Of a DNA stretch of 64,000 bases, positions 1,529 to 63,584 are shown piece by piece. Every line of letters starts with the position of its first letter. Positions within the stretch are counted from its first letter, which is position 1. Source of the stretch: Proteromonas lacertae (Eukaryota); the NCBI GenBank assembly GCA_002245135.1, contig NGBS01001161.1, positions 310,001-374,000 on the forward strand. The letters are read 5' to 3'. The notes below the pieces were generated by a model. It made no database searches and was not told where the DNA came from. It saw nothing but the letters and a program-made list of their open reading frames with translations. The position numbers and the translations under genes are program-made.

Positions 1529-4500
1529 ATGGGCATTTTAGTAGTTTTAAATATTTTATTATTTATTCCTGCTTTTGTTGGAGCAAATTTTGCTGTGATT
1601 ATAAGAGATTCAGCTCAAATAACTTTTTATGAGACATTCTTTCGTTCTCTAGCTGGTGACCCAACTGTCCAGGTTTTTGCTTGTGATAGTGGTTTAGATG
1701 CAACTCTAAATATATTAAAGACTGGTTTATATCAACATGTTTTCACAGATGATTGCTTATACGATATGGTAGATGATCTAAAAGATTACCCATGTTATTT
1801 TTGGATGGCATATCCACTTGCTCAGGAGAAATGTTCCAAGAATGTAATATATTACAGTTCATTTGTTCCTATGATGATTTCATGTATTTATATTATATTT
1901 ATAATATAATAGTTGGTCAAGCATTTGTAAAAAGATTCCAAGATCCTAGAATCAATGTATATATCGTTGAAGATGATAAGAATAATGTTAAGAACAATAA
2001 TGTATATGATATGATGAGTGGTAATATCAGACATTATGGATTTAACTCTGTATTTGATATTTTACCTGAGAATTTTGATGCAAATATAACATCAATCTTA
2101 TCAAAGAATGAAAAAACAATATTCTTGTGGGTAAATAGAAATAAAGATAAAATAAAGAAGTTTTATGGTGATGCTAGTTTTGATTCAACTAAACATATTG
2201 TATATTCATTCATTCACTTTGAAATTAAATCAATAACATCTCCTGGAACAAATACATTAAAAAATCTAAAAGAATCAACTCAAATGTTTACTGTTTATAT
2301 CAGGAATGATACAGCATTTGAGAGTTTAGTTAATTCTATAGATTCAGCAAGACAATTTACATATACAGATATAATGTTTTACAATATTTATTACCTTTTA
2401 TTAAATGGTAATACATTATCAGGAGGACTATCACCAATTGCTTTAGTTAAATCACTCTATTACCAACGTTTTTATTTTACATCAGGTGCTGTTTATCCAT
2501 TACCTAATAATTTTATATCAACATCATATTATAGTGTCAAATATGCTGATACAAATGATGATAGTGTAGATTTATTAGCCGTACAACATGAATATTTACC
2601 AAATGTTTATTTTGACCCAAAAGAACAAATGGGTAATGTTCCTTTACAGCATTGTAGTTGGCAAGCAAATCCGTTTACTGGTAACGTCAGCATTAGTCCT
2701 GTTGTTATTTTGTTCTTAAATCCAAATAGTGGTGAGGCAAGTCGTAACAGTGTATTGTCTATACTTTATTTATTATATTGTTAATAGCAATCATTAAGTG
2801 ATTTAGAGACAGCAGTTGTTGATCATATTAATAGACAAGGAGGAGTACTTGGCACTTATATTCGTGGGTATGTTATTAATACAAATATACCTTGGGAAGT
2901 TTTGAAGATAAAAGTATAAATAGTTTATATTTTTTAAATAATTATAGCTAATTGGATTTTATAATAGATATAAAGTTCCAGTAATGTTTCAATCGTCAGT
3001 AGGAGAAACAGCATATAAAATACATGACTGTATGAATAATAATTCTATTATTTTATTGTAGTATCAATTGAACAACAATGGAATACAATGTTTTTTGTTT
3101 TAAGTAATTCAAATTCTGCTCAATGTGATAATTATGGAACATTCTATTTAGGAATGTCTGCTTCAGTTGTATCGAAAGCATTAGTTAGTCATTATTTAGA
3201 GGAAAATATTAATTCAGTTTTTATAGTTGGAACTACAGAAGAGTATCATTTATAAATTGTATTTATATCATTGTTTAGATTTTCAGTAGCTTTATTAGAT
3301 CTTTTAAAAATAAGATTGACAGAATATGAAATATTTATCGAATCACAAGCAATAATGGCTGCTACTGATCTGGATAATGGTATTGTAATAGCTAAAGCGA
3401 TTAAGAAGTCTTATCCAGATGGTGGTTATGTTATTAATGCTGCATCAAGTTCATATAATCAATATTTATTTGAAGCATTGAATATTGAAGGTGTAAATGA
3501 GACAAATGGTTATTACATTTATAATGTATTTTTATCTGAACAAGATGTTACTTATTTTAGTAATTCAAATGTATAATGATGTAGTTATTAATATTAAATA
3601 GTTGACTGGATTTTATTCTCTTGGATATTATTTTGATTCAGAAAAAATACCATCAATGGAAGCAATAAAGAGTAGTTTATATGATAAAGACTATAGATTA
3701 ACATCAGATTTAGTTATTGCAAGAAATGCAATTGAAATGTTAAAACAGATTATAATTCATGCAAATACATATGATATGAATACTATACAACAGTATATAT
3801 GTTTTATTAATCTTATCATATTCTGTTTATAGATTTATGTTTTCTCAAACAATAACTGATCCTAGTATTTACAGTATTGAATTTTCTGGTTTTGCCAGAA
3901 TGAAAATAAAAATATATAAAGTGAATTATTTAAATGAATTTGAAGATATTTATACACCAAAGTTTACATTTTATTCAGATTATGCTTACCCATCAAGTTA
4001 TGTTTGTTCTTGGAAAGATTGTATATTGTTTTTATTATGATTATTATTTATAGCTGAAACTGATGGAATTCACAAATACAAATTGTTAGTTTTTGGTAGT
4101 ATTTATGATAGAACAAATCCAGATCATTTACCATATATTACTCAATTGAATGATATTATAGAATCAGCTAATTCTTTAGAAATTATACAAGAAGCAATTA
4201 TATATATTTATCATTTTAAATATTTAGATGAAGATCCATATAAGAACTATGAACTAAACATTTTTGAAATGGTTCATAATACTTATAATAATTCTGATCC
4301 AATCTTTCTTGGTATCTTTGGAGGATATGATGGAGAAGAAATTGAAAGAATTGAACCATTATTAAAGAAATATGATTTGTTATTCTTTGATTTACATCCT
4401 CATTATGGTGAAACATGTAATTCTCAAGTTGTTCATGTTGGAGGTACTTTTAATCAGTTTGGAGAATCTCCTTTAGTTTATGCTTTACAAAGTTCTGAAT

Positions 4501-7500
4501 CAATTGCCATTTTTACTGATAATTTAGAAAATAACATACAAATATCAAATACAGCTGTGAGTATGTTAAATCAGTTCACTACATCTGATATTTATACTGA
4601 GACTGTTACAAATTCAACAAATTGTACAAGTGTTGATGATATAATTAATACTTTACAATCAAATTATACATCATCAAGTGTATTTATATTTATGAGTCAA
4701 AAGAATGTTGAAAATATTATATTGAACTGTTATTCATACAATCCCACTATAAGAGTATATGCATTTGATGTTTGGGATAAAACTATTCATAAGAATCCTG
4801 AGAAATGGAATGGAGTTTATATCATTTCTACATATTTAAGTTCACTTAATACTACAGAAAATGTACAGTATAATATGTTAGTAAATGAGAAAGTGGGAAA
4901 TAATATTGATTTCTTCACTCCATTTGTAATTAATATTTATGATGTTTTGCTATTATATCAGAAAGATTTAACTTTGTTAGAAGAACAACATACTACAGTA
5001 GAATACTTATCTGCATTATATGCTGAAGAAATATCATCTATATATGGAACAATATCTTTGAATTTCAATAATTATTTAGATAGACCTGTTTATGTTACTC
5101 AGATTATGAGTTGTTCAGTTTGTCCTAATGGTTATTATCATAGTCCGTTTTATATCAGTTCATCACCAAAAAGAGGATTTCCATATGCTACATATGCAAA
5201 TGATAATAAGTATTATGAATGCAACTTTGTTGATCCATATATTCAAGAGAAAAAAGAGATTGCATCATTTCCTATCACTTTCTTATTAGATTTAAACAAG
5301 ACAATTGAATCATTTGGATTGTATGGATTAATGTTGACTGTTATAGAAAAAGTGAATAGTGCTGGTGGTATAAGAGGTTTACAAGTGTCAGCTGTTGTTA
5401 GATCATGTCCTGTATCTGATGCTTCTGATTTGTTTTTAAAATTGAAATCAGAAAATGTAAGATATATTTTCAGTATTTGTTCACAAGAGTCTTTCACTTT
5501 AATGAAAGAACCCATTAGTTTACTGGATGTTATATTCTTTCAAGCAGGTAGAAATTATGGTTATGAATGTGCATATAATATTTTGATGCTTAGCACTGCT
5601 GCTTATCAGGAAATAACACCTTCATTTTTATATCTTATCAAGAAATATGGAGCTGTTAATATTGTACTGGTTTTCAAAGATGATAAGTTCAGATCAACAA
5701 GAATATTATTGATTAATTCAATGTTGGAATTAGCACCATTTAAATCTATAAAGAATTTCATATTTTCAGGTGATGCAACAACAGCTGAAAGAAATTTGGT
5801 TCTACAAGAAGCAGTCAATTCATTACAACAGTATCAAGAGTTGTGTTTGACAGTTTTAGTGATGGATCAAGATGATTTAGAACAATATGCAAAATATTAC
5901 TATGAAGTTATTGGTGGTGGAACACAAAGTGGTTTAATTAACGCAGAAAAGATTTATCCAGTAGTTGCTCAAACAGAAGTCTATGGCACTTTAAAGAATC
6001 CATCATATTTAAATGGTTTTTACCTATTAACTGCTTTTTCAAATTATCAACCTACTCCATATGTTGTTCAGTTTAATCAAGATTATGGTTCTTATGTTGA
6101 TGGCTTCTTTGTTCCTTATAGTGTTGCATTAGTGTATGCTGGATTTCAATTATTAACAACGTCACTACAAAAGATTGAACAAGAAAAGGCTACAACCAGA
6201 GCAATTATTAATTTGTTTTTGGAGTATTATGATTATAGTATTGGTGGTTATATTTTCTTAAATCCATATTCTAAACACCTTCAACAACAGTATGTCATAG
6301 CTCAGTTTAAGGATAATACATTAAGTAATTTTGTTACAATTTCAGATATGTTTCCATCTCGTCCTTTTTATAAAGGATATACAATACCTGATACTACAAG
6401 ATGTGATGGTGAAAATGTAGTGGAAGTAGATATTATATTTTTGGCAGTATTCTTTTCATTTACTGAAGATGAACTTGAAAAATCATTACAAATAGTAGAA
6501 TCTAGTTTCCTTTCACTTGAATCTACTGTGTATTTACCAGATGGTAGAGCAGAAGGTATTTTCCTCTGTGATATTCATGGAGATCCAGAAGGAAGAGGTG
6601 TAGAGTGTTTTAAGCAAGCTGTGTCAAGAAAAGCAGTTGGTGTATTTGGAACAACAAGATCTGAAGATATTGTAGTATTTGGTAAGTTGTGTGATGAATA
6701 CAATATGCTTTATCTTATCCCATTTTTGACTGAAGGTAAATATTGTAATGAATATACATTCTTTGTATCACCACCAATCTCTGCATATGTATAATTATAA
6801 TATATATATTTTTATTAATAATAGGATACTGTATTTTCGTCAATTACAAGAAATTTCTTGTATGATATGGTAATAATAATGAGTGATACAACTAATGCTC
6901 AAGGTATTGGAAAATATTTACAAGGTGAATTAAGTTATAGAGGTGCTAAAATAGTTAAGCAGCATACAATTCCTTATACTGATGTTGATTTAGAACCATT
7001 AGCAGACACTATAAAAATGGATTTACCAAATGGCGGATTCATTTTGAATTTGTTAGAAACAGGTCATGCTATTGATTTTCTGAAAGTTATGTATGATAAA
7101 CAACTGAAATATCCAGATTATAAAGTAATGTCATTCTTTGTAGATGTGGATATAATTCGAGATACTGGTGAAGGAAAATATTTAGAAAATCAATACTTTT
7201 GGACTATATATAATACATGGGAACTTGCTGATTTTACTGTGTTTAATACATGGTATAGCAAATTAATGACATATCGAAATTGGTATTCAACAATAGCAGT
7301 TACTACTTATAATACATTATGGATGTATATTTGTTGTAAGAGCTCATTTCCAGATTATAATTCGATGATGATGAGATATGCATTTCAACAATTGACTGTT
7401 CCAACTACTTTTGGTTCATTGTATCTACTAAGAACAAATGTTTATGAAACTCCAGTTTATTTAACACAAGTTACAACACTTCCTAATCAAGCTTATACTC

Positions 7501-10500
7501 TTACTACAAAATATAAGCCAGCTTTGGCAAGACAGATTCCAGAAGTATTACAGTATAATTTCATGAAATATGAAACTTGTAATTTTGTTTATGGCAGTCC
7601 ATTATATGGAAGAATTAGTTATCCATATATTTCAGTTGGACTAATGTTATCACTGACTGGTTCTGATAGTACTAATGATAGGCCTTTATTTGAATTGATT
7701 CTTGGTTATTTTAAATATATAAATACACAATATGATATTCATGGGTATAAGATTAAAACTATTTTAAATAATCTTGAATCACAGATTGATAAAGTTCAAC
7801 CAGCTGTTCAATCATTTTTAAGTCAAGGAGTATCAATAATTATTGGTTGTACAAATAGTGCGTGTAAAACTAAAGTAATTGAATCATTGGCAAACAATTT
7901 AGATGTTGTTTATTTCTATATTGGTAATGTAGAAGGTGAAGAATGTCATTCAACTGCTTATTATACTGGTCATTTACCCAATCAGTATATTTTCCAAACT
8001 GTCGAATATCTAGTCAAATCAAATTTACCTAAAACATTGTTGATAGTTGCAACAAAAGGATCTGCATATTCTGTTAGAATAAGTGAAATTGTTAGGAATA
8101 TTGCTTATTTTCTACTCGATTTATTAGATATTCAATATTTAGCTTCAACATCATCATATAGTACGTTTTTATTTTCTATTCCTTCATTATGTCCAAGTAA
8201 TGGTTGTTCTATTATACTAACAGGTGATATGAATGATGTAATACAATTTATTAATGACTATCATTCTTCAACATTAACTGAATCAATGTATCCAATATTT
8301 GCAATGACACTAAGTATGATGAATAAAGATTACTTCACTGAAGGTAATTTCAAGAATTTATATATTCCAACAATCTACACAGCTCAAGCTCAAGAATCCT
8401 ATCCAACTTTAACTGTAAAAAATACAATATTCCATTATAGTGGATATGCAACTACAGATTCATTAATAAGTGCTTATTATGCTGCAAATATTATATCTCA
8501 AGGTTTTATGGAAGCTCCGGATATTTCAAATCATTATTTTCATAGTATAGTGTCTGGTCATAAATTTCAAGGTCCATTAAGTGTTTCTACATTTTATGAT
8601 ACACATTATATTGATCATCCCTTTATATTAGTACATATCAACTCAGATGGAGTAGAAGAATTAGCTGCCTATCATTTAGAACCTGTCAAACCATTACCTT
8701 GGAATTGGATGCTTCCTACAGAATTAGGTAAATCATGCTCGTTTGGTATGGGAGGTATTACAACATTTACTCAAGAAAAAGTTGTTTCTGTTACTACTTT
8801 CATTAATATGTCAGGAGAGGATGTTGAATTGAATAATGGTGTATCAGAAGCAATAAATGCAGTAATTGATAGTTATAATGCTGCAAATGGAATTAATGGA
8901 TATACTATTGTTCATTATTTAATAGAAATTGATGATTTAGCTGATGCAATTAAATCAGTAGAAGAGATGGCTAGTTTTATTAAACATAGATCTGTAAGTG
9001 CTGTTCCAGTCACACCATTATTTATATTAAGTTATAATGAAGAAATAAGAGATGGAATTTATGGAAAAATTGCTGATATGGAAGGTTTATTGGTTGATGT
9101 ATCAATGTCAGTTCCAAATTATTGTGAAAAGAGTGTTGTATCTGCAAGTTTAACAATTGGTTACTATGATAGATTATTGGATATTATTATTCATAGACAT
9201 TATCCTGGTTTTGCAATTATCAGTGAATTAGATAATGTAGCTTCATCTTATGTAAAGAAATACTTAGAAAGAAAAGGTGGTAGTGTATTGATGGTTTATT
9301 ATGATGAAAATAACTTGAATGTAATTGTAATGTCATCTTTATTACATACATTAAAATCTCAATTCTCTGAAGGTTGTTTAATCTTTTTAGGTAAATCAAA
9401 ATATCATTCTTTATTAAATGCAGGAATGATAAATACTGAATTATATGAACCAAAATACCATTTAATATCGTTTACAAGTGGTGGTGAAATAGTAGATTCA
9501 ATCGAGAATATATTACCATTTGAAGCAGCTGGTGCTTATTCTCAATCAATAAGTCGAAATGAAAATACTGAATTTCTAAACCGAATGAAAGCCTATTACA
9601 CTGGTTCAACATTTTTGAGTGATAGAATAGCTAGAACTTACTCAGTATTAAGTCTATTGTTTGATTCAATGATAAAAGCAGGAACAGTAAGTGATTTTTC
9701 TTTGATAAGAGAAACAATGTATCATACCAGTTATTCTGCACCTGAAGGTGTATTGACATTATCTGAGAATAATTATCTAACTCGTGTGATGACCTTATCA
9801 ACATATGATCCTTCAAGCAAAACATTTACTCTTGTTTATTCAACCGAAACAGCAGTTGAAGGTACAGCTTGGATAAGTGATGGTAAAGTAGAGATAAATT
9901 CATGTAATTTTGTAGATTTAAGTATAGGAAAAAAGAAAAAAGAGAAAACAATAAGTGTAGTAATTCCAGTTGCTTTAACAGGTGTTGATCAAAAAGATGA
10001 ATTAAAATTATTAGATTCAATATTACTAGCAATTGATGAAATAAATGAGAATGGTGGTATTTTAGATAATAAAGTAATAGCTGATATAAGAGATACAAAT
10101 TCTGATGAAGCAGAATTCCTTAGTATAGTTGAAACAGTGAAAGACACAGATTCAAAGTTAATAATTGGTGGAATAAAGAGTGAAGTATATTCAAATGTTG
10201 GACCAAGAGTTGATAAAGTTTTATACATATTCCCTGGTTATAATCCAGGTGAAGTATGTTATGAAAATGCTATATCAGTTAATTTCATGTTAAATCAACT
10301 AAGAAATCCATTACAGATTTATTTATACAAAGAAATGAAGACAATCTTTATAGTTTATGAATCAAATGAAATAAGTCAACAATGTCGATTAATGGTAGGA
10401 AAACTAATAGGTGAATCTCATTTGACTAGTAATGGTCAGACATTATTAACAAACAGTAATATTCAAACATCAGTGATGTTAATGCAAAGTAAATTATTAG

Positions 10501-13404
10501 ATGGTGGAACAATAGTAAATTGTCTATCTTCTTCAATAACAGTTGATCTTATGAAAGAAATGTGTAATCAGAATTTATATCCACCAACTTATACAATAGT
10601 TAGTTTATTCTTCCAAAATCATTATTTAGATGATTTAGGTAATATAAATAGTAAATGTATAGCAAATCATTATGTAATTTCTTCCTTCTTTCCTTCTTTA
10701 TCTGATGACTCTTCATCAAAAATAACAATCTCATCCACTTCTTTGAATGGATTTGTGAATAGTTTAGGTCAAAGAATAGGTTGGAATGAGAGAATAGAAT
10801 CTTATATGGAAGCAGCCTATTCTTCAATGATATTATGGGCTGATGCAGTTCAGAAAGCCTATACATTTGATTCATCTTTAATAAGATCTGTAATGTATGG
10901 TAGAAAATATAATTCTCCTTCTGACTTTTTGATAATATCGAATAATAATGTAGCAAGTCGAAGAATATATACAGCTTATATAACAGCGAATAAAGATTTG
11001 TATGTAGTTGAAGGTCCAGATGAAGCAATAACACCAAATGTGTATAGTGATATAAACGCAAATGGATTAGCTAATCATTATTGTGATTGGTCTAGTGCAA
11101 ATGGTGGGAAATCTTTTAAAAATTGAGTAAGAATATTTTAATGGTTCATAATACTGATGCAACAGATCAATTGACTGATTTATATAGATCATTAGCTGAG
11201 AAGGTGTATATTGATGCAATAAATCAAGATGGTGGAATATTAGGTTATAATCTAATAATCATTGATGCTTATTTAAGTGTAAATTCAGGTGAAATGAGAA
11301 GAAAAATAAAGAATATGATAATAGATAATGATGTAGTTGCTGTATTTGGATGTTCTTCAATATTTTGCATTGATGTAATGAGTGAAGTAGCGAATGATTT
11401 AAAGATATTATTCTTTACAACTCAATCTGATGATGGTACAATATGTTCTCCATACACAATTCATACTGGTCCAGCTGTGAATCAATTAATTGATCCACTA
11501 TATAGTTTCCTTCCAACAGTTGAAGTTAAAGCTGTGTATGTAATTGGATATGAAATTGAATCAATGAGTTCAATGATAAATGTGATAATGGATAAAACAG
11601 AGAGTATAGGCTTATCATTTGGTGGAGCTTGTAGTTATTTATCAACAAATAATCCCAACTGCTGAAAGTTTTAAGAATTGTACATTATCTTTAGAAAAAG
11701 TATATACTCAATATGATAGAGTTTTTGTTTATGCTTTAGTTTACCCATTTGAATTGTCTTATTTTATTGATTCTTTAAGAGACAATAACATTTTAATGGA
11801 ACATATTAAGTTAATTTTCTTTTCATATGAACCAATATATTTCAATGATGATGATTTAGATTATATAGATGGAAATTTCATTATTACACCAAGTGGAGAT
11901 GGAACTCAGAATACAGTAGCTTTATCATTCACAAGATTAATTCAATCCAATTTAGGATCTGATTTCCCAATAACAGCAACAATGACATATATGTATTCTG
12001 CTCTACAATTATGGAAAGCAGGAATAGAAGTAGCAACAAAACAAGTGAATGGAGAATGGCCTGGAACAGAATATGTAAGATTAACAATGATAGGTCAAAG
12101 AGCAAATACTCCAGGTGGAACAACAACAGTAAAATCATCAATGTATACAACACAATCATTCTATATAACCGAAATTGTCAGTAAAGAAGAATCATTAATA
12201 TATCCTGCAAAAGGAACTGTTATTGAAATGGATCCGTTATTAACAAGTGATTGTGAATTTGGTATTGCCAAGACACTATTTTCATACAATAGTATAGTTA
12301 GAGTAATAGTATTTGTATTAGTTGGTATTATAATGGTATTTTGTGTGTATTGTTGTTATTTCTTATGGAATTATCGTGAATTGAAGATAGTGAAATTTGC
12401 CTCTCCATTGTTTTTGTTTTATATGTTGATATCTTTAGCTTTGTTAGGTGCAGAAGGTGTTGTATTTGTGTTTGAACCAACAAGTGATGATTTAGTTTGT
12501 GCTTTTAGAGTTTGGGGTTTGGCATTAACAGTTGATTTGGTATTTAGTATTATTATAGCCAAAGCTTGGAGAATTCATAGATTATTCAACAATAAAGAAC
12601 TTAAGAAAGTATAATACACTATTACAATTGTTATTATTAAATAGATTAATATCTCGAATGGATCATTATTGAAAGTTATATTTGTAGTTTTAGGTGTGCA
12701 AGTGATATATCTTGGTATTTGGTGGTTAGTAGATAGATCAAAATACACAGAAACTTTTAGTCCATCTTATTCATCTTTCTTTGAAGATGTATATATTCCT
12801 GAATGTACAGAAAGTCAATACTTTATTTACATTCAAATTGCTGTTGTAGCAGTGATGTTTGTGTTTGGTATAAGATTAGCTTGGTCAGTAAGAAAAGCTT
12901 CAAAAGAGTTTAATGAATCAATCACCTTAGCTTCAACATTTTTGATTATGTGTATGAAATATATTATTCTAATTTTTATTTAATAGTGATTATTGGTGTT
13001 ATTGATATACCATTGAACTTTATATTATCAGATAGTCCAAATGTATTAGTGTCATTAAGAGCATTTGGAGATGAATTAGGTGTAATAATCATTTTATTAA
13101 TACAATATTTCCCCAAAATCTATGCAGCTTATACAACATCATCTGCTATTGATACTGTTACATTAGATCCGTCCAAAACAACAACTGCTACCACAAAGTA
13201 TATATACACATTATTTTATTCTGTTCTAGACAAACACAAACTCGACAGTCTATTTCTGAGAATCATGAAGGAAGTAGAGGTCAGTCAATCAATAAGAAAT
13301 TTGATAAAGATACTGATAATTATGATATGGAAAAGATTACAAAAGCTACTTTAGCATCTATTTTAGTTTTATCTCAAGATAATCCAAATATGAGAGAAGA
13401 TTAG
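1529..13404 (+). CDS. Giant class C GPCR: signal peptide + 9 tandem type-I periplasmic-binding (UrtA/AmiC-like Venus flytrap) modules + 7TM (7tm_3), roughly 3,800 aa. About 12 introns and two apparent 1-nt frameshifts (11118-11122, 11654-11656)
   Basis: N-terminus MGILVVLNILLFIPAFVGA. Nine copies of a (L/Y)FxxxxxxGxxC-like motif recur at ~1.15-1.3 kb spacing. 7TM signatures are KIVKFASPLF, CAFRVW, IIAKAWRIHRLF, FGIRLAWSVRKASKEFNES and YFPK. Stop TAG at 13402-13404. Confidence 0.85.
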
Positions 13405-13468: not shown

Positions 13469-15159
13469 CTAATTTACATAATAATTTACTGGTGCGACGA
13501 AATTTAGATGTAAATTTAATTGATTCAACACTGGTAATAATAAATCATTATATACTTGTATTTTTTCTGGTTCTAACTCATTGTTAGCTAAATATAAGTG
13601 TTGAAGGTTAGTTACATTGGAAACATACTTTTTCATTGTTTTTAATCCTTTAAAATCTATAACATTATCTATTTCAACAATAAGAAAATAAAGCAATACT
13701 TTGAAGTGATAAAGATTTCATATTGTGTATTGCTGAAAAATTCATGCTTAAATACTTCAATCCATGACGATCAATTCCTACATCTTCTAGTTTCAAATCA
13801 TTTAAATTAGGGAAATAGAACAAATTGTTAGAAAACACTTTTACACCATAATTACCTATATAATTACCACGAAATACAATTATCTCAACTTTATCTAAAC
13901 CTAATTTTATTGATTTATCTGATATAATTCTTTCCAAATATTCTACTTGTCTATATTTTGTTTTAGATTGATTAAAATTAATTCCATTGTGAATTGTTGA
14001 TCTTAATATGAATAACGAATCAAAAGTATTATCATTAATATGAACTGGCAAAACTTGTCGAATAGTATATAAAAGATTTTCATCATCACTATTCAAAAGT
14101 AAATTAAATAGAACTGAAAATGCCATTCTATTGTTTGAATGATCTGAATACTCATTAATAATTTTTATTATAGTTTTGATTGAATCTGATATTAAATCTA
14201 AAGCACTAAAATCAGGCAATAGAATTTTATTCATAAATGCAGACATGTAATAATTACTATCAATAATTAATTTCTTATTTCGTTTTATATTGAAGCTAAA
14301 ATTGTTATAACTACAATCTAATGTCATCATCAATTCTGTTAATGATATTCTTTTATTTATGTCTTTTGTGAATATTCTATCACATATATTAGATATCATT
14401 TCATCATTTACTGTGTTTTCATAACTACATTGAAGTATAGATTGTAGATTCACAAATGGTAAAAATCCATTGCTTAAATAAAACATCACACAACCAATTG
14501 ACCAAATATCACTTTTATATGATATTTCATATCCTTTAATTACTTCAGGAGAATCAAATATTATATCATTGCTTCTATTATATTCTTTAGATATTAGATT
14601 GTCGGTTAAATATACAGTTTCTAAGTCATCTGATAATTGTATATTTGATAGTTTAATATTTCCATGAACTATATTGTTCTGATGAATATAACTAACTATT
14701 TCTAGTAATTGCTGTAGAATATAACTTTGTATATAAAACAGTGATTCATAATCAATACAATCCATTGAAATCGAATGAAATGGATGAAGTAAAAATAAAT
14801 GATTCTGATTTTCAATATAAAATATATCTATTTTGTGAAATAACGGAGATATGTTCATTAATTGAATTGTTTGAATCTATGATTTAAGATTAAAAATAAA
14901 ATACCATCATAATTATGTCGATTTTTCTTGTTCCATCAACCTTCATTATTTTTATTACAGATTCATTAGTACTAGTCGAATTATTTGAAAAAAAACAGTG
15001 ATAGGTGCTGACTTTCTCTTCATCTCTTAAAACATGTCTGATCTGTTTATAATAACAATAAATTTGCCATACTTTGTAAATGCTGTTTTTATTTATCTTG
15101 GGCTATATAAATATAGTTTCTGAGAGTAATACGAAACTGAAACCTCTTGGCAGATGCAT
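13469..15159 (-). CDS. Pseudokinase + RNI-like LRR protein (paralog A), 4 introns
   Basis: Kinase-fold motifs HGNIKLSNI, LTDN, SPE and SDIWSIGC, followed by ~28-aa LRRs (GNYIGNYGVKVF, LNDLKLEDVGIDRHG). ATG at 15159 found by joining three GT-AG introns. Confidence 0.8.
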
Positions 15160-15334: not shown

Positions 15335-16168
15335 CTATATCATTCGAAAAGTCAATTTGGTAATATTATACTCCATTCCAAATACTTGTCTATATCCATC
15401 ATTACCTAAAATATCTCTGAAATGTGTATTCATTTTTTTAAACTCATTGTCCAAGTATTCTATATCACTATTTTCATGAGCACTATGAATAAAATCTAAT
15501 ACAGCTTTATAAATCATTCTTTTATCAACTCTCAAATTATTGTTACTATATTTATACTTGAACAACAAATCAACTCTTTTCATAATCTTAACATCTTCAG
15601 ATTCATTAGAAAAATCAATTTCTAAATATTTTTTCATCATTCCTTTTGAATTAGACATTATATTTTCTCTTAAAGTATATGTTGTTTTATTATCCCATTG
15701 TTTTTCACATTCACTTAAATATTTATCCCAACCATAACCATAGACACCATATAGAGTATAAGATAATGATCCTCCATATAACTGAGACTTGTCCATTGCT
15801 ACTCCAGCAGTATACATGATTCTATTAGCCATCTGATGACAAACACCTTTAACACCATATAGTATTCCACAAGTATCATCAGAAGCATTAAAAATGTTGT
15901 TTGAACGAATTGAACCATATTTCCCTGAAACAATTGTAATTGATTTTTGTAAATCACCTGTTGCTTTCATCGAGTAACGTATTTTATCAGTGATTGGTGT
16001 ATTGCCTGTGCATGCAAATATGTATTTATCCTCAGTTTGAGTATACACACCTGTATGATCTAACCAACTAGCAATATCAGTAGGCTGAGCATATACAACC
16101 AATTCAGTATCTAAAGATAGTTCTTTAGATTGACTTAATACAAATAACAAGCAAAAAATGAATATCAT
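15335..16168 (-). CDS. Secreted protein of unknown function, intronless CDS, with DHT...C and YGVKGVCHQMANRI motifs (possible permuted papain-like/NlpC-P60 catalytic pair)
   Basis: Single ORF of 277 aa with signal peptide MIFIFCLLFVLSQS and conserved-looking His and Cys motifs. Confidence 0.7.
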   Translation of the reverse strand: MIFIFCLLFVLSQSKELSLDTELVVYAQPTDIASWLDHTGVYTQTEDKYIFACTGNTPITDKIRYSMKATGDLQKSITIVSGKYGSIRSNNIFNASDDTCGILYGVKGVCHQMANRIMYTAGVAMDKSQLYGGSLSYTLYGVYGYGWDKYLSECEKQWDNKTTYTLRENIMSNSKGMMKKYLEIDFSNESEDVKIMKRVDLLFKYKYSNNNLRVDKRMIYKAVLDFIHSAHENSDIEYLDNEFKKMNTHFRDILGNDGYRQVFGMEYNITKLTFRMI

Positions 16169-16260
16169 TCTAAAGAGGATGGAATATATTGAAAAAAACA
16201 CATAAATACATGTATTGTAGTGTATTTGATTGTATTGTGAGTTTTTAAATTTTTCGTTTT

Positions 16261-32289: not shown

Positions 32290-33413
32290 CTACTTCTTCT
32301 TCTTCTTTCCTCCCTTCTTCTTCTTCTTCTTTGTTATATTTCTAAATATACTGTTAAATACATCAGGAGGAAGTGTCTGATCACAAGTAAACTGTAGAGT
32401 ATGGTCGTTTGTCTCTACATTCAAGAATGGCTGTAAAGCTTTAGCTCCTTCCTCAGTAATTAAATTTCTTTCAAAAAATACATTTATTAATACCATATTA
32501 TCAAACATCATTTGACCAAACAGAGTTAATGCATCTGTTAGTTTTTTTGTCACTGGAAATTCACTTATATTATTATCACACAAATTTATTGTCGTTATTT
32601 TTGTATTTCTTCTTAAAGCATTCGCTAAAATTATTAATCCGTTAATTCCAAAACCATTTCCTTCCAGATATAACTCCAATATTCCACTATTCTTCTCCAT
32701 TATTAATTCTGCTAAACCACCACATCCCACTTCTTTTATTCCACAAAAATTAAGTGACAATTTCTTTAAAGTGACATTTGTTAGTAATCCTTTACACAAT
32801 CCTACACATCCATCATCACCTATTGGATTTTGATCTAAAATAAGACTTTGTAAAGACATATTATATCCAACTGAAAGAACTCTACCAATTTCAGTGGCAC
32901 CTTCATGTCCAATATTATTATAAGTTAAATCTAAACACTGAAAAGGCATTTCCATTGTTTCACATTGTTGAAGTAAATTCGCAAAAGCTAAAGCACCTGC
33001 ATCGCAACAATTGCATTTCCACAAACGATAGTTCTTACAAAATGGCCAAGGTTTATATTTAAACGGAGTTGTTCCTAAACTTTGTGCCATTATTGCGTTT
33101 ACTATTGCTCTTGTTCCGGCTGGACCTAAATTTTCGTCTGAAAAACAAAACTATTATAGGATAAGCAAGATAAAGAGTATACTTGTGTTAATGGAGCTTC
33201 TCGATCTTCCTCTGGAACTAAATATTTTTTCATTGATGTTAGAGGTTCAATTCCAAGTTGACCACATATTTTTCTGTACATTATACACACAAATTCCTCA
33301 GATGGTTCACCTAACAGCAATAAAAATAACTACATACTTATATCTTCCTTCTTTTTCCTGGATCCTCCACCTTTTTTGGACTATTAAAGAGTAGATATAA
33401 AGAAATATACCAT
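32290..33413 (-). CDS. RNI-like leucine-rich repeat protein with polybasic C-terminus, 3 introns (first exon is ATG only)
   Basis: LDLTYNNIGHEGA, LILDQNPIGDDGC, LSLNFCGIKEVGC and LYLEGNGFG. Ends KKKKKKGGKKKKK. Confidence 0.8.
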
Positions 33414-38459: not shown

Positions 38460-41400
38460 TTAATGTTTATCCCAAAATCCTCCTTTCAGAGGAGGTTGTC
38501 CATCCTCTCCTCCAAACAATAATTTTTCAATTTCTGCTTCAGAAGTTTCAGATACTTCAGTCTTTTTCGTCTCAACATTACCGTCATAATCAGTTAATGT
38601 ACGATCTCGACTTACTTCTTTTGGAGCAGGTTCAACAACAGTAGATTTACGAGAATATGCCTTGGTTGTTGTTTTATTTCCATTCGACTTATTTTTTTGT
38701 GTTGCATATGGACTATTCGTCATCATTGATGATTTCTTTTTGATGATTTTTTGCTGAGTTCTTTTCTTCCATTTGACTAACTTTATTTTCAATTTATCTT
38801 CTGTTCTTTCTTGTTGTTCTTTATTCCTCTTTGCCATATCTTTCAACGTACTTCTCAATGCATTTTTTACCTTCTCCTTCAATGAATCATAATAAAACAT
38901 CATTCTCTGTAATTCTGTATGTGATAACATAAACAAATGACTTGTAGTTAATGCTCTGATTGATGCAGTTCTTTTAGTTTCCATTAATATCGCTATTTCA
39001 CCAAAATAATTACCTTCTGTTATGTTTGTATATACAACTTCATCTGCTGTTCCAGCTTTGCCTAAACATTGAACTGTTCCTTTTATTAAGAAATACATTT
39101 CTGTTCCTATTTCTCCTTCATGAAATACATAATCGTTTGGACTACAATAAATTGGACTCATTACTATCAATAAGTAACTGATAAATCCTGTGTCTTTTTC
39201 ATTATTAAAGAATGAAATCTTTGGTATTTCATTTCGATATACATACAGTATTAATTCATTTCTCAAATATTCAGGCATTTCATTCACAAAGGATGTTTCA
39301 TCAAATGCACTTTTCAATTTAAATATAAAAGTATAGTGTTTAATTACTCTATCAATCATTACTCTTGGTATTTTATTCTCCTGCAAATAAGCCAGTACTT
39401 CATTCATCCTTGATTTCTCTCTTCCTCCACTAGATGAATCTAATTGACTTACAACAGCAGCAATACCACCTATTATATAACCAAACACAATTGAACCTAT
39501 TAACATTGACAAACTACAATATATCATTTCAAATGTATTTGTAGGAGTTATATCTCCATATCCTACAGTTGTTATGGTTGTAAAACTCCAATACAACGAA
39601 GATACATACTTTTCAAAATTACTTTGTTGGTCTTTAATGTATATAAGCAATAACCAATTGTCATTTGGATAAAATGTTGTTATGTAATACCATAAGCAAC
39701 TAAGAAAATTGGTAATAAACACTACTTCATAGGCATAAGCACAGAATTTCTTCATATTTGGACTTAACTGAAATTGGTTGGTGAATTTTGCATACAACCT
39801 CAGCAATTTGTATAAACGCAATAATTTCAAAAATCTAATAAGCTTTGCTAATCTATATGATCTTAAATTCATATGACTATCAAAATCTAACAAATAAAAA
39901 ATCAAATCAATTGGAATAGAAGATAAAACATCTGGAATAAATGTTGTGCTTAAATAGTGTTTTCTTATCTCCTTATAATCACTTTCTAAATAATCCAAAT
40001 GACGATAATAAGCTGTAAAAAAACGAATAACAATATCAAAAATAAATATCATGTCAAACAATATAGAAAATAATAACCATATTAAATCAGGTTCTGCATT
40101 AAATCCAACTCTATATGGAACTTCTATTGAATTGAATATTATTATTATAAACAATATTATTTGATGAAATGAATAATACTTATTCTCTGGATGGATAATA
40201 TACTTTGGAAGTTTATTCATTTCATTATACAATTCTATATCTTGTTCTACATTCTGATATAAATCTCCATTTTTATCATTCTTATTCTCATCATTTGATT
40301 TACTCTTTTGATTAATAACTTCATTGATTTTATCTTTGAATTCACCTTCCACTTTTTTCATTTCACCATTATATAGTAAAAATGATAATAGCAAAGCATT
40401 TGTTCTTCTTGCTACGACATGAGTAGCTGATGTTAAATTTTCTCTTATCGAATCTGCCATATCTTGTCCAATTGATCTTCTATACTTTTTCTTTTTAAAT
40501 AAATTCTTTGGAGAAACTGGATTGGAATTAGGCAGTGTTACAGTTTTATTTAATTTCAACTGTTCTGGTTTTCCTGATAAATCTTCACTTGAAAGTGTCT
40601 TACTTAATTTTTTCTTTGGTGGTGGTGTAACTGATTCAGGTAGTCTTGGTGATATTTCATTTTTTTCTTTTCCTGTAATTGGTGTTTCTGGTAATTCAGG
40701 TGCTACTCTTGAAGATGATTTCTTTGGTGGTGTAAGTGGAATTGATAGTTTTATTCTTGAGGGCAACTGCTTAGCTTGTGATGGGATTGTTGGGAGAGTT
40801 TGTGGAGATTTTATAAAACTTGATCTGAATGACTGTGAAGGTGATGATATATGGAATGAAGTGGGTGTTGATTTTCTCATTGAATCATAATCATAAACTG
40901 GAGAATCTAATGCAATTGTTGCTTTTCTATTAATTGTCATTCTTAATTCCTCTTTAATTTTGTTCAAATTAGAAACTCTATCCTTTGCTGTTTGTGTTAA
41001 TTTGTCTTTAATTCCTTTGAAATAAAATGTAATTTCATCCACATCATCTTTATTAATAAAGTACATATCACAATAAGTAATTGCAGTAAATGAACAAGGA
41101 CTTCTCATTTCTAACATTAAAGAAGTATCACCAAAATAACAACCAGCATTATACATACCAACTGTAAAAGGTGATTTATCATAATCTATAAACACTTCAA
41201 CTTCACCTTTCACTAAGAAATACATTTCTCTAAATATCCAACCTTCATTACCTATTAAATCGCCTTTATTATGATACATTGGTCTTAATCTTGTCACAAA
41301 CGCACAAACTACGTTTCTATCTTCACCAATAAACAGTTTACAATTAGCTACAAAATCTAAATGAACTTCAATAATGATTTGATTTCTTATATTATTGGAT

Positions 41401-42912
41401 AATTCAGAAAGAATTACATTTTCATCAAAGACAGAACGATGTTTATATAAATATTGAAAGTATCTATTTATTTAATATAAATACAACAATAATCAATACT
41501 TTGTTATTTTTCTTCTTATCATTGAAGGCACTTTTCTATCTTTTAGATATTGTTTCAATTCATCAATTTTATTTTCAAATACAATACTTCTAATTGAAGA
41601 ATCACTAGAAATAGCAGTAATATTACCAACTAAATAACCATAAATAATAGCACCTATCAATTGAATGATAATTGCAAATATTCTTTCATATAAATTATAA
41701 GCAACAATATCTCCATATCCTGTAGTTGCCATTGTTGCTATTGTCCAATAAAATGAAGAGATGTAACAATTAATTAATGATTTTCTATCAATATCTATTG
41801 ATTCTATCCATGAGAATGAATTATCAGGTCCATATCTTCCAATGAAAAACCAAATGCAACAAATGATATGAGCAGAAAAAATGAATGTCATAATTAACTT
41901 TGAAATATTATACAATCTCGGACTATATATTAAAAAGTTATAATGACAATTGTATTATACTTTATTCTGAGTAATATTGCTTTGTTAAATGGTATTCTAT
42001 ATAATTTAAATAACTTTAATAAATGACTTAAAACAAATTATTAAAGATAACTATCAAAAGGTATTTATATATGTCTATATAAAAGATATTAATTTGAAAT
42101 CCTAATCTATTTTTCATCGCAGACTGAAGTATGAAATCTAAAGGAATTGCTGGAATTAAATCCATAATAAACTTTGTTTTTAAATAATGAATAGCAATTT
42201 GTTTTCTATCATACACAGTCATTTGATTTTCTTCATCTTTAAAGGTGACAAAGAACCTTATAATAATATCCACAATAAATATAAACTCTATTATAACATT
42301 TATTATTAACCACGCACCTTCATCAGCAATATCATAACCAAACATAAAAGGTGTTGTTAATGAAGATAATATAATAATTATACGTAATAATATACCCCAT
42401 ATTACATAGAATATGGATTCTGCATGAATGATCCAATTATTTCCAAAACACCAAAACCGTTTATCCTTATCTGTTCTGTTGTGTTGCTTTAAGAATTTGT
42501 CTTGATCTCTTCTTTCCATCATTTGAACATGTAAAAAGTCTTGAGTATTTCCTGTGTCTCTTTTCCATTCATTTTTTACGTTTTTACTCTCAAGATTCTC
42601 TCTAATAAGTATAATTGATGAAAATGTACTCAACACTTTCACTAATTCCTTCCAAATGTTCTGAATCATTTGATTTTGTCTCAGCAAGATTTAATGATTT
42701 ATTCAAACAGCTATTCACACTGTCACTTATTAGTTTTCTATTAATCAAAGAAAATAATGTACCGATTCTGCCTTTTTGATTCTATTTTATCTCTATTTGT
42801 TTGAGATTTCCTTGTAGATTCGTTTCTTCTCTTGAGTTTCTAAAGATATCAATAAAGAAAAATGTACAGTTCTTCTAGTATCATTTCTAAATCTCGCTGT
42901 TATTGATAACAT
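38460..42912 (-). CDS. Two-repeat CNBD-containing K+ channel, 2x(6TM + C-linker + CNBD)
   Basis: Two pores, YWTIATMATTGYGDI and YWSFTTITTVGYGDI, and two CNBDs, YFGDTSL and YFGEIAIL...RTAS. The frame is continuous after splicing. Confidence 0.88.
42028..42089 (-). other. Putative U12-type intron (AT-AA, 62 nt; alternative AT-AT acceptor at 42037) at S4 of channel repeat 1
   Basis: 5' ATATCTTTTAT is identical to the SmD3 intron, with branch-like TCTTTAAT. Removal gives GFQISHLLKLFKLYRI, colinear with repeat-2 S4 SYRLAKLIRFLKLLRL. The only local GT-AG option is out of frame. Confidence 0.68.
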
Positions 42913-43064: not shown

Positions 43065-46000
43065 TTATGCTGCAACCAATTTTCCTCCTTGTAATACAAA
43101 CCATGAACCAGACTATTTGATAAAAAATAGATAAATAATAGAAAATATATACGTTTGGATCCTTTGTGTAACGATTACTACTCTCATCAAAATACCATGT
43201 AGTTTTTGTATTATACCATAAATTAAATTCATCATTCCATATAAAATCACCTTTTCTCTTTGGTTCAGCTTTTGGAGCAGGTGGTGGAGGTGGAGGGGCT
43301 ATTAAAATAAATAATAATATATAAATATATACGTTCACCAAATCCTTTTCCATACATATCATCATCTTGAAAACCACCACTTGAATCACCAAATCCACTA
43401 TCTCCAAAACCACCACTATCAACAGCTGGAGCAGCAGCAGCAGGAGGAGGTGGTGGTGGCGGAGGAGCACCAAATCCACCATCCATACCTCCTCCACCAA
43501 AACTATCATATGAACTTGCACCTAATTCGTAAGTACTTGAACCTAAATCATAAGCACTAGCACCTAAATCTATTGAACTATCAACTCTAATACCTGGAGC
43601 AGCTGGAGGAGGAGGTGGAGGTGCAGCAGCACCAAATCCACCAGCACCACCAGCAGGACGTAAATTAGGTAAAAACTTATAATAACAAGGAGGTATTGAA
43701 TTAGGAACTGGGAGTTGTTGTTGTGTACATACCATAATCATTTGCATAATAACACAGAATTCTGGCTCATTACATGCATTCAAATTAACATCAACAGCTA
43801 ATGATACTATTTGTTGTAATATCTCAAATGCTAATCCACTCATCTGGAACATTGGGAATGCTTGACCTAAAGTAACTGTTGGAGCACCCATTGCAATTTG
43901 ATCATAATAACCTTTCCATTGTAAATACATATTCTCATCCATACCCCATGGTGGTGATTGATCATCTTCCAATCCATATCCTGAAGTTGCTCTACTTCCT
44001 CTTCTTGCAGGTGGAGCAGCAGGAGCTGGTGGTGGTGGTGGAGGAGGAGCACCAAATCCACCATCCATTCCTCCACCAAAACTATCCATACCTGCACTAG
44101 CACCACCGAAACTATCCATTCCAAATCCACCAGCGGCTGGAGCAGGAGGAGGTGGAGGAGGAGCACCTCCAAAACCTCCACCGAAACTACCATCATCACC
44201 TCCTCCAAATCCACCATCATCACCTCCACCAAAACCACCATCATCACCACCAAAACCACCAGCAGCAGAACCTCCAAAACTATCCATTCCTCCACCGAAA
44301 CTGTCCATACCTGCACTAGCACCACCGAAATTATCCATTCCAAATCCACCAGCAGCTGGAGGTGGTGGTGGAGGAGGAGGTGGAGCAGCAGCACCTTTCT
44401 TTCCTTTCTTACCTTTAGCAGCTGGAGGTGGTGGAGGAGGAGCAGGAGCACCAAAACTATCATCCATTCCAAAATCATCATCACCTCCGCCAAAACCACC
44501 ATCATCATCACCACCAAATCCACTATCCATACCACCACCAAAGCCTCCACCAGCAGCAGCAGCACCCATACCAAATTCATCATCACTTGAGTCATCACCA
44601 GCACCAAAACCACCACCGAATCCACCAGCAGCTGGAGGTGGTGGTGGTGGAGGAGGCGGAGCAGCACCTTTTTTACCTTTCTTTGCAGCAGCACCTTTCT
44701 TACCTTTTGCAGCAGGAGGTGGAGGTGGTGGAGGAGGAGCACCAAAGTCCATTCCACCTAAATCATCATCAGAGTCATCATCACCAAAACCACCACCACC
44801 CATACCAAATCCACCTGCAGCTGGTGGTGGTGGAGGAGGAGGAGGTGGAGCGCCTTTCTTACCTTTCTTTCCCTTCTTACCTGGTGGAGGAGGTGGTGGA
44901 GGTGGAGCATTACCAAAACCATCATCTTCTTCTTCCTCATCTTCTTCATCATCATCACCACCACCTGCAGCAGCAGCACCACCACCACTACCTATCTCTT
45001 TACCATTTGCTACAAGTGTAACGAAGGATGTAGCAATTGATCTTGTTAATCCATCTAAGAAAACAGCTCTTTCTTTTAATGCTCTTGACATTTGTGATAT
45101 ATCTTTTGCACCTTTTCTTAGATCTCTTGCATTTACTGCATTGTATTCTAATGGTCTATAAGCAGCTGGTTGAATAGCTTGAGCAGCTAGTGCCATTGAT
45201 GCTAAATAACCTAATGGTAAATTGGGATCTTCTTTAGCAAATGCCATCATTGGATTTAATACTTTCTCTGCTGTATAAATTGTACCTAAAATCAATATAA
45301 TTTGACATGTAGTAGAATCAGAGGCTTCAAATACAAATGCTCTTTCTGGTGTAACAATTGAAAACCTTTTATCATTCTCTTGATTCTTAATGAAATAGGT
45401 TGATTGATTGTAAGTATCTTTTACCATTGTTTTACCTCCTTTTCTTAACTTATATTTATTTCTATTTAATAATACTTGGAAGAAATCTTTCTTACCACCT
45501 CTTGCTAAATCTGCAGAATTCAAACCTGATATATGATTTACAATATAGAATATATCTTTACCTTTCCTTAATGTTGCTTCTACTGGCATTTCAAAGTGTT
45601 TTATTGTTACTGGTTGAGTTGTTTCAATATAATGTGCATTTCCATATCGAACTCTAACTTGCATTTGACAGCCAGCATCATTAATCGATAAGAAATAAGT
45701 TGGTCCAGAATGAACTACATCCATTTGATTTCCATATTTAACTCTATACCATTCAATAAATGCAATATCACCAACTTCAAACACTTTTTTACCAATATGC
45801 ACTTTACCTTCTACATACAATAATGTACCTGCTCTTGGTTGACCTACAATACTACAATCTGCAATTCGGACAATTCCTTTCTGCATATCAGGTATTTGGA
45901 TCATTGAATATATTTGTTCTTTTATATCCATCACACAATCTGCTGAATCTTTTAATAAATTCATTAAATTAGCTTCTACTGGTGATGGTTCTCTAGCTTC

Positions 46001-46673
46001 ATGTATTTTCATTTGCATTGATTGACCACCTTGAGCTCCTTCTTCTGAACTTGATCTTCTTTCCATTCCACCAGGTGGAGGAGGAGGTGGAGGTGGAGCT
46101 CCATGTGGACCACCTGGTGGTGGTGGTGGTGGAGGAGGAGGAGGGGGTGGAGGAGGTGCAGCACCTTTCTTACCTTTCTTTCCCTTTGGAGGAGGTGGTG
46201 GAGGTGGAGCTGGTCCTCCCATATCATCATCACTTGAATCAGAAAAACCACCACCACCAACTGGTCTTTTTGGAGGAGGGGGTGGTGGAGGAGGAGCACC
46301 GTATTCATCATCACTGTCTTCTTCTGGTTCAGATTCATCTTCGTTTCCACCATCTATTTCTAGTTTGACGGATTTACCTAATGGAGTGAATTTGTCCTTT
46401 AGAGTATCTGCTATTTTCTGTTTACTGATCTGTGCTCTATATTTATTATAATTATAGGGTGTATATTATACGGAATAACGATCTGTTTTTTATTGTGAGT
46501 TCCTTCTCCCCAAACAACACCTATTTTTATTATAACAATAACTTAAATACCTGGAATTTCAATGTTAGTAATTTTTGCAATAATAACCAAAGGATCTGCA
46601 TCTGGATTTGGTTTTATTGTATATTTACAATTAACTAATGTTGATATTATATATAATAATGTATACGTGGCAT
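43065..46673 (-). CDS. Polyproline/Gly-Phe-rich scaffold: small N-terminal domain + SCAB1-like Ig-PH + EH domain + C-terminal OCRE-like domain, 5 introns
   Basis: ATG at 46673 joins via three introns. Ig-like IEWYRV...PTYFLSINDAG, PH-like KYKLRKGGKTMVKDTY...FVFEAS, EH W...FQMSGL..EILQQIVSL..D...EFCVIM...PVPNSIP, and aromatic octamers FIWNDEFNLWYNTKTTWYFDESSNRY. Confidence 0.75.
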
Positions 46674-62815: not shown

Positions 62816-63584
62816 ATGTCTCAAGAACAGTATCTAGAATCACTTTTAAAACTTGAACCACCCGTGTGTGTATCTAATACAACATTAGATAGTAAAGTAT
62901 AACCTCATTAGTTTATATTTTGTTCTACTAGCCAAGTAAACAAATAGCAATGAATAAACTTGAAAGTACACAACTAGATGAGATTTTAAACTCAATATTA
63001 CCACCTCAGTATCATAATTAGTGTTATTTTATAGCCGTTTCACAAAGGATGGTTTTACATATGAGCAACAAGTATCAAAAGCAAAATCAGGAAGAATGGA
63101 GATAATACAATTACAAGAAACTTTAGATCGAAATCTTGCAAAACGTCAAGCAAGAGATAGTGGTATATGTCCAGTAAGAGAAGATTTATACCATCAATGT
63201 TTTGATGAAATTATTCGACAAGTAACAATATTTGGACCAGAAAGAGGTTTATTGTTATTGAGAGTAAGAGATGAAATAAGAATGACAATTGATGCTTATA
63301 AAACATTATATGATAGTAGTGTAATATTCGGAATAAGAAAACAAAAGCAAAGTGAAGATGGAATGGAAGAAATGAGACAGAATATTAGGGATTTAGAAGA
63401 GAAAAAAGCAAGATTGAATCTTGAAGTATTGGAATTGAGAAACAAAGTTGATATTTTACAGAAAAGAATTGCTGAAGAACAAGCTGTTGAACAGAAGAAT
63501 TATCAAGAACAAACTGATTTTATTAAGCATCAAATAGGACATTTTGAACAATATTTAAAGAGTTTAGATGCTGATGCTAATTAA
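62816..63584 (+). CDS. DNALI1: Axonemal inner-arm dynein light chain p28
   Basis: EILNSILPP and RQARDSGICPVREDLYHQCFDEIIRQVTIFGPERGLLLLRVRDEIRMT. Confidence 0.96.

What the first reader, a model, noticed from the sequence alone, without database searches (positions are those of the whole stretch)
1529..13404. Giant class C GPCR with nine tandem bacterial-type (UrtA/AmiC-like) Venus-flytrap modules
Seen: eleven ORF fragments join into one gene of roughly 3,800 aa, made of a signal peptide, nine ~385-aa modules and a 7TM with GABA-B-type signatures (VKFASP, AKAWRIHRLF, LAWSVR...FNES, FPK). Each module carries a variant of one motif: YFWMAYPLAQEKC (~1800), FFVLSNSNSAQC (~3095), LFFDLHPHYGETC (~4380), IFFQAGRNYGYEC (~5535), LYLIPFLTEGKYC (~6710), YFYIGNVEGEEC (~7910), LLVDVSMSVPNYC (~9090), LYIFPGYNPGEVC (~10220) and LFFTTQSDDGTIC (~11410). 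Several are followed by xGxxPNQ-like ends, and several modules open with IN.NGGI.G. Established: these match type-I periplasmic binding proteins of the urea/amide class (UrtA/FmdD/AmiC: LLFYPxQYEGxExSxNxxYTGAxPNQ), and canonical class C GPCRs carry a single flytrap. Inference: this is a multi-ligand nutrient or chemosensory antenna receptor, possibly built from a bacterial binding protein. The modules are highly diverged, which suggests old duplication and different ligands. I know of no described receptor with this architecture.
Basis: partly seen in the sequence, partly recalled or inferred. Interest (0 to 1): 0.92.

Follow-up and report, generated by a model that had tools for sequence, protein, structure and literature searches.

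The report
Nine-flytrap receptor built from urea binder
This protist DNA encodes nine copies of a clamp-shaped domain related to the bacterial urea-binding protein UrtA, lined up ahead of a G-protein-coupled-receptor membrane domain, likely as one giant receptor that would sense several small molecules, and it belongs to a receptor family for which no published description was found.

Summary
The architecture is real. A signal peptide, nine ~386-aa modules and a class C 7TM lie on the + strand at 1529-13404, joined by 12 GTAT..TAG introns (3,821 aa). All nine modules beat shuffled controls against a profile of relatives. A model of modules 7-8 matches UrtA best (Z 48.6). They are probably assembly errors: relatives run through both, and three other genes in the window, including aspartate aminotransferase, have the same kind of break. 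The gene is not unique: 20 of 150 listed relatives carry 2-9 such modules plus the 7TM in one ORF. One (P0002) has nine modules, five with the complete UrtA urea pocket; here each module keeps only 0-3 of 8 pocket residues. Best reading: a class C GPCR family built on a UrtA-type binder, probably urea/amide-sensing at origin, with pockets since diversified. Ligands, dimerisation, G-protein coupling and a single mRNA are untested. Ten paper searches found no description. New variant of a known kind.

The parts
1529..1588 (+). Start codon and predicted signal peptide
   Evidence: only hydrophobic segment before the 7TM; inferred from hydropathy, no dedicated predictor run
1589..2694 (+). Module 1, the most diverged (intron 1884-1912)
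   Evidence: 46.5 bits vs shuffle max 7.8 with family profile; failed two weaker profiles; Atlas 0.90 to ANF/Peripla_BP_6 clusters
2695..4073 (+). Module 2 (introns 2752-2787, 2914-2947, 3030-3061, 3243-3278, 3571-3601, 3793-3832, 4021-4053)
   Evidence: 147.8 bits; introns
4074..5264 (+). Module 3
   Evidence: 131.0 bits; Peripla_BP_6
5265..6428 (+). Module 4
   Evidence: 76.5 bits; TIGR03407 23.5 bits
6429..7622 (+). Module 5 (intron 6789-6824)
   Evidence: 137.9 bits; TIGR03407 33.2 bits on its second part
7623..8777 (+). Module 6; best-kept pocket (3 of 8 UrtA residues)
   Evidence: 204.9 bits; TIGR03407 62.8; pocket
8778..9944 (+). Module 7
   Evidence: 183.6 bits; AlphaFold2 model with M8
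9945..11122 (+). Module 8
   Evidence: 301.8 bits; TIGR03407 96.7; fold matches UrtA 8hic, Z 48.6, rmsd 2.4 over 379
11118..11126 (+). Frame break 1: one base short at an A run in the M8-M9 linker, stop at 11124-11126
11123..12284 (+). Module 9, membrane-proximal, degenerate pocket
   Evidence: 191.5 bits; Pfam and TIGR03407 on both halves; pocket
11650..11660 (+). Frame break 2: one base extra inside module 9
12285..13122 (+). Class C seven-helix domain (introns 12609-12644, 12952-12986)
   Evidence: 7tm_3; best solved relative GABA-B2, E 1.3e-6; family alignment
13123..13404 (+). Ser/Thr-rich cytoplasmic tail (intron 13198-13229) and stop

Best explanation
The DNA encodes nine UrtA-like clamp domains and a class C seven-helix domain that likely form one ~3,820-residue receptor, in which some clamps would close on small polar molecules and would pass the movement down a predicted stiff chain, through a probably non-binding last clamp, to the membrane domain and an inferred G protein. 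Shown: domain content and order, class C motifs, UrtA as nearest known sequence and fold, a family with the same layout, loss of the urea pocket here and its retention in GC-rich relatives. Inferred: that the two frame breaks are assembly errors; that the family began as a urea/short-amide sensor; that the diverged pockets bind other ligands; that the two cysteines kept in almost every module form a disulfide; that the last module is a transducer; dimerisation and G-protein coupling (from class C knowledge).
For: One gene: a profile of 14 relatives that run unbroken across this region scores the 1-nt-break reading 332.0 bits against 313.6, 306.4 and 287.9 for the intron readings; three like breaks lie in other genes of the window (61367 in aspartate aminotransferase, inside a motif continuous in solved homologues; 55284; ~34552), so about 0.9 breaks are expected in 11.5 kb (3 in ~36.6 kb; my scaling). 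Family: 22 of 22 top relatives have Peripla_BP_5 repeats and 12 of 22 a 7tm_3 hit; 20 of the 150 listed have 2-9 modules plus 7TM in one ORF. P0005 has a signal-peptide-like start and nine modules, and 7 of 9 window modules match it best at the same position. Low-GC modules group by position (17 label changes vs 64.6 shuffled). Origin: UrtA pocket W-S-Y-Q-E-Y-N-S (PMC10392092) is 8 of 8 in five P0002 modules and one P0029 module; the last module keeps 1-2 of 8 in P0002, P0029 and P0049 and at most 2 of 8 in 18 fully aligned low-GC last modules. Fold: M7+M8 model pLDDT 89.2, pTM 0.91, consistent with a fixed mutual orientation; UrtA Z 48.3-48.6, AmiC 42-43, GABA-B flytrap 32.5-32.7. The two cysteines are the best-kept columns (99% and 92% of 189 modules).
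Against: No RNA evidence for this gene. The DNA as given cannot make the full protein. No window module keeps more than 3 of 8 pocket residues, and at positions 6-9 most pocket columns are no more conserved than the median column, so binding may be lost rather than changed. Pocket mapping at under 25% identity is uncertain: it shifted at some columns between alignment methods. High pTM is a model's confidence, not a measurement. P0002 module 8 does not group with the low-GC module 8 set (AU p 0.025, simple model), so the shared count of nine may be coincidence. Trees have long branches and no root.
Confidence: 0.55

Rival explanations
1. One intact receptor, but most modules no longer bind small molecules: they form a long stiff stalk for reach, adhesion or mechanical sensing, with at most one or two working pockets.
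For: 0-3 of 8 pocket residues per module; pocket columns not conserved at positions 6-9 while core Gly/Cys/Tyr are; 14 N-glycosylation sequons in the ectodomain; module spacing tightly kept (median 386, quartiles 381-389, n=104).
Against: Position 5 keeps a conserved polar pocket in relatives (Y 83%, D 67%, E 78%); P0002 keeps the full pocket in five modules, so the array can be multi-binding; variable pockets are also what a diversified chemoreceptor family would show.
Confidence: 0.25
2. The two frame breaks are real and this copy is a recently broken gene, making at most a secreted eight-module protein that ends at 11126.
For: Both breaks are in the DNA as given; two in 11.5 kb is above the ~0.9 expected; members of large receptor families often decay (general knowledge).
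Against: No in-frame stop or other lesion in the rest of the 11.4-kb coding sequence and all 12 introns canonical; like breaks in a housekeeping enzyme in the same window; P(2 or more) was 0.13-0.36 for 2-4 background breaks.
Confidence: 0.15
3. Two genes: a secreted eight-module binding protein (1529-11126) and a one-module class C receptor starting at ATG 11141.
For: The first ORF stops exactly where UrtA itself ends; the gene finder chose stop 11126 and start 11141.
Against: The second gene would lack a signal peptide and the first strand of module 9 and still has the break at 11655; only 14 nt separate them; 14 relatives are continuous across the junction.
Confidence: 0.04

Closest known systems
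GABA-B receptor subunits (GABBR2, e.g. PDB 7c7q, 6uo8)
   Same: Best solved match to TM1-3 (E 1.3e-6); class C motifs; binding domain joined to TM1 without a cysteine-rich domain.
   Different: One ANF-type flytrap there, nine UrtA-type here; family relatives score higher on TM1-3 (P0020 92.2, P0002 45.9 bits) than GABBR2 (31.8).
UrtA, urea-binding protein of UrtABCDE (TIGR03407; PDB 8hic, 7s6e, 7s6f, 8tg1) and AmiC (1pea)
   Same: Closest sequence and predicted fold for the modules, including the two-cysteine signature of 7s6f/8hic.
   Different: Stand-alone bacterial transporter component; window modules are far below the cut-off (17-96.7 vs 492.75 bits) and lack the urea pocket.
Non-animal class C GPCRs with bacterial-type binding domains (fungi, Dictyostelium, diatoms; PMC3251606, PMC3971589, PMC3727952, PMC10445921)
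   Same: 7tm_3 fused to periplasmic-binding domains (ANF, Bmp, OpuAC, SBP_bac_1, Peripla_BP).
   Different: Passages read report N-termini of 57-1,667 residues and mention neither tandem arrays nor UrtA; here the ectodomain is ~3,480 residues.
BvgS-family bacterial sensor kinases (PMC4352136)
   Same: Tandem flytraps (2, up to 5 in homologues) proposed to integrate signals; membrane-proximal domain proposed to stay closed and transmit.
   Different: Histidine-kinase output, not a 7TM; different flytrap family (type II, recalled).

Membership tests
Class C GPCR | 7tm_3 membrane domain | tested here: met
   66.5 and 51.6 bits vs cut-off 33.5; six helices above the hydropathy threshold, TM3 placed by alignment
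Class C GPCR | Loop/TM3 and ECL2 cysteines, Lys/Arg at end of TM3, acidic residue at TM6, PK in TM7 (as listed in PMC3727952) | tested here: met
   LVCAFR, PECT, AKAWR, FNES, FPKIY
Class C GPCR | N-terminal bilobed flytrap domain | tested here: met
   nine of them
Class C GPCR | Constitutive dimer | not tested
   no dimer job was run
Class C GPCR | Ligand-driven G-protein activation | not testable with these tools
   needs an assay
GABA-B subfamily | No cysteine-rich domain between flytrap and TM1 | tested here: met
   one Cys in the 60 residues before TM1
GABA-B subfamily | Single ANF-type flytrap | tested here: not met
   ANF_receptor 22.6 and 18.6 bits, under cut-off 25.4; fold closer to UrtA (Z 48.6) than to GABA-B (32.7); nine copies
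UrtA (TIGR03407) | Score above the family cut-off | tested here: not met
   17-96.7 bits vs 492.75; modules 1 and 3 no hit, module 2 not submitted
UrtA (TIGR03407) | Type I binding-protein fold | tested here: met
   module 8: Z 48.6, rmsd 2.4, 379 aligned; module 7 same secondary-structure order but barely tested by the fold search; others by sequence only
UrtA (TIGR03407) | Eight conserved urea-pocket residues | tested here: not met
   0,0,0,0,2,3,0,1,1 of 8 for M1-M9; 8 of 8 in five P0002 modules
UrtA (TIGR03407) | Stand-alone component of a urtABCDE operon | tested here: not met
   intron-containing gene among eukaryotic genes

The most novel reading that the evidence does not exclude
A microbial eukaryote took the bacterial urea-binding protein UrtA, fused it to a class C seven-helix domain and multiplied it into a chain, creating urea-sensing GPCRs (P0002, P0029 type) and, in a low-GC flagellate lineage, a large repertoire of nine-pocket receptors in which each position binds a different metabolite and one chain sums them into a single G-protein signal.
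Probability: 0.3. Interest if true: 0.92.

Novelty: new variant of a known kind. Interest (0 to 1): 0.76.

Why it matters
Class C activation is understood for one flytrap per subunit. A nine-clamp chain asks how a distant clamp can move the membrane domain and whether one receptor can combine inputs. The family gives a direct test: P0002 and P0029 have complete urea pockets, so the ligand is predictable and they would be urea-sensing GPCRs, a kind for which the searches here found no report. The modules are much closer to one bacterial transporter family than animal flytraps are to any named here, which makes this a traceable case of a transporter part becoming a receptor. The diverged modules are also a ready panel of scaffolds for ligand screens and biosensors.

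Tried and rejected
No RNA holder was listed and no whole genome is held, so splicing, the breaks and paralogues in this genome could not be checked. Word-based homologue searches: none for the 1,433-aa ORF among longer proteins, none for TM1-3, one bacterial UrtA for module 8; the family appeared only in the full HMMER search. Exact look-ups of 7 window ORFs found 0. Two scans of metagenome contigs found no relative. Single-sequence fold of part of module 1 was useless (pLDDT 29.8). The complex job for M7 with M8 as separate chains gave no answer (score 0.00, alignment not used); it is no evidence either way. Intron explanations of the two breaks (11090-11127, 11604-11634) were rejected: GC-rich or non-canonical, and they lose 18-44 bits against relatives. 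Programmed frameshifting was considered at 11124 but the site is not an in-frame X XXY YYZ heptamer and like breaks occur in ordinary genes. Gene-finder break at 44921 was false. Blastocystis as host was dropped: 8 of 8 strains have no class C GPCR and no axonemal dynein light chain in PMC12129017 Table S5, while the window has both. Earlier-findings look-ups returned nothing.
Full report
Observation. The + strand from ATG 1529 to the stop at 13402-13404 carries a hydrophobic N-terminal segment, nine repeats and a seven-helix domain. A splice search and an independent codon-model gene finder agree on eleven introns and the finder adds a twelfth at 13198-13229; all twelve are 29-40 nt, GTAT..TAG, 6-22% GC. 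The finder also made two calls inside coding sequence (10639-10662, 12292-12321) that I left out because the frame is open and homologous there. Removing the twelve leaves 11,466 nt, 3,821 residues plus stop. Modules are 8-19% identical to each other. M2-M9 passed a leave-one-out test and M1 did not; with a profile of 129 modules from relatives all nine passed, M1 at 46.5 bits against a shuffle maximum of 7.8.

The two breaks. The frame shifts by one base at ~11124, giving a stop right at the end of module 8, and back at ~11655. The only intron candidates are non-canonical or 42% GC. A profile of 14 relatives that are continuous here prefers the one-base reading (332.0 bits) to the intron readings (313.6, 306.4, 287.9). 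The same kind of break splits a conserved motif of aspartate aminotransferase at 61367, whose halves match adjacent residues of solved enzymes, and occurs at 55284 and ~34552. Three breaks in ~36.6 kb of other coding DNA predict about 0.9 in this gene. I put assembly error at about 80%, a real lesion at 15%, two genes at 4%. No reads could be laid.

What the parts are. Pfam gives Peripla_BP_5/6 and 7tm_3 above cut-off. The best NCBIfam match for M4-M9 is UrtA, far below its cut-off; the best solved sequences are UrtA 7s6f, 8hic, 7s6e (E ~1e-22). An AlphaFold2 model of M7+M8 from 30 sequences has pLDDT 89.2 and pTM 0.91; module 8 matches UrtA at Z 48.3-48.6, AmiC at 42-43 and GABA-B flytraps at 32.5-32.7. 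The 7TM has the class C cysteines, AKAWR, FNES and FPK, and its best solved relative is GABA-B2. There is no cysteine-rich domain before TM1.

The family. A full HMMER search with module 8 gave 357 hits at E up to 0.001, of which 150 were listed. All 22 top hits scanned have repeated Peripla_BP_5 and 12 have 7tm_3. I took 39 of the 150 as family rows; 20 have 2-9 modules and a 7TM in one ORF by a 7TM profile that included the window and three relatives. Most are ORF fragments, so module counts are minima. Left out were several short fragments and four proteins with two widely spaced domains and no 7TM. P0002 (3,745 aa, start probably cut) has nine modules and a full 7TM in one frame; P0005 has nine modules from a signal-peptide-like start, and 7 of 9 window modules match it best at the same position. 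Of ten looked up, nine come from Logan assemblies without names and one from JGI, labelled as a urea-binding protein. Closest relatives are 22-29% identical over M6-M9. Hosts are unknown; by amino-acid make-up there is a low-GC group like the window and a GC-rich group (P0002, P0029, P0049, P0089).

Evolution. Low-GC modules group by position (17 changes vs 64.6 shuffled, 0 of 200 as low; 107 rows from 14 family proteins and 38 others), so the array was fixed before these genes diverged. In a 46-row careful tree the 20 single-domain rows lie on one side of a 99/95 branch and all array modules on the other, compatible with one origin. The tree is unrooted, has long branches, and some single-domain rows may not be bacterial, so direction of transfer is inferred from UrtA's known bacterial role, not shown. 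P0002 module 8 is rejected from the low-GC module 8 group (p 0.025) while a clade of last modules is not rejected (p 0.27): the P0002 array may have expanded separately.

Pockets and mechanism. The eight urea-pocket residues of UrtA (PMC10392092, passages) are complete in five P0002 modules and one P0029 module, but window modules keep 0-3. The last module is degenerate throughout. In 189 low-GC modules the two cysteines and core glycines are kept, while most pocket columns at positions 6-9 vary as much as an average column; position 5 keeps a polar pocket (positions counted back from the last module, P0022 and P0089 excluded). The most likely working: clamps close on small polar ligands, movement passes along a stiff chain to a non-binding last clamp, the 7TM rearranges, probably in a dimer, and activates a G protein. 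Every step after domain content is inference; the main rival is a mostly structural stalk.

Known systems and print. Class C 7TMs fused to bacterial-type binding domains are known in fungi, Dictyostelium and diatoms (PMC3251606 passages and section 20, supplements listed but not read; PMC3971589 passages and search of three supplementary files, file 1 not searchable, and its architecture lists may collapse repeats; PMC3727952, PMC10445921, PMC12716839, PMC8687355, PMC12965686, PMC13466386 passages). Tandem flytraps are known in BvgS-type kinases (PMC4352136 passages). PMC12129017 (passages, sections 5 and 6, rows of Table S5) counts many class C entries in one low-GC flagellate without describing architecture in what I read; PMC5608401 has no GPCR mention. 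Ten searches found no description of a UrtA-type or multi-module protist class C receptor; subscription journals, including the genome paper that PMC12129017 cites for that flagellate, were not seen. Unchecked notes from this scan report animal class C receptors with two to five flytraps, so tandem flytraps on a GPCR may not be unique to this family.

Verdict. Real feature; new variant of a known kind. Interest 0.76: unusual architecture, an apparently undescribed family, and a relative whose ligand can be predicted and tested, offset by the lack of expression or ligand data and two unresolved breaks in this copy.

Noticed in passing
window 61367 (-), 55284 (+), ~34552 (-): One-base frame breaks without introns in aspartate aminotransferase, a protein kinase and a zinc-knuckle protein; the assembly probably carries uncorrected indels, so other broken genes in it should be doubted.
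   Followed up: yes
window 63018-63581 (+); whole window: Axonemal dynein light chain, 28% GC and ~26-56-nt GTAT..AG introns. This fits a flagellated low-GC protist. In PMC12129017 Proteromonas lacertae has 27.0% GC, 116 class C 7TM and 182 type I binding-protein entries, 7 G-alpha, 75 RGS and no urea transporter; the lineage is an inference, not established.
   Followed up: partly
P0047, P0135: Single UrtA-like domains in unusual settings: P0047 ends in a Thr run and hydrophobic tail like a GPI-anchor signal; P0135 has hydrophobic N-terminal segments. They may be eukaryotic or viral, so the single-domain group in the trees is not certainly all bacterial.
   Followed up: no
P0034, P0051, P0052: UrtA-like domains fused to bacterial signalling domains (cyclase-like, PAS/diguanylate, histidine kinase): UrtA has been reused as a sensor in bacteria too.
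   Followed up: no
window 43268-46465 (-): 1,066-residue frame rich in polyproline, Gly and Asp with no Pfam hit, in the only GC-rich stretch (42%).
   Followed up: partly
window 38463-42690 (-): Cation channel gene with two ion-transport domains and two cyclic-nucleotide-binding stretches.
   Followed up: no
window 13469-14876 (-), 52763-54287 (+), 32293-33150 (-): Degenerate kinase and leucine-rich-repeat genes, apparently a repeated family.
   Followed up: no
window 15335-16169 (-): Single-exon ~277-aa protein with a signal-peptide-like start and no Pfam hit.
   Followed up: no
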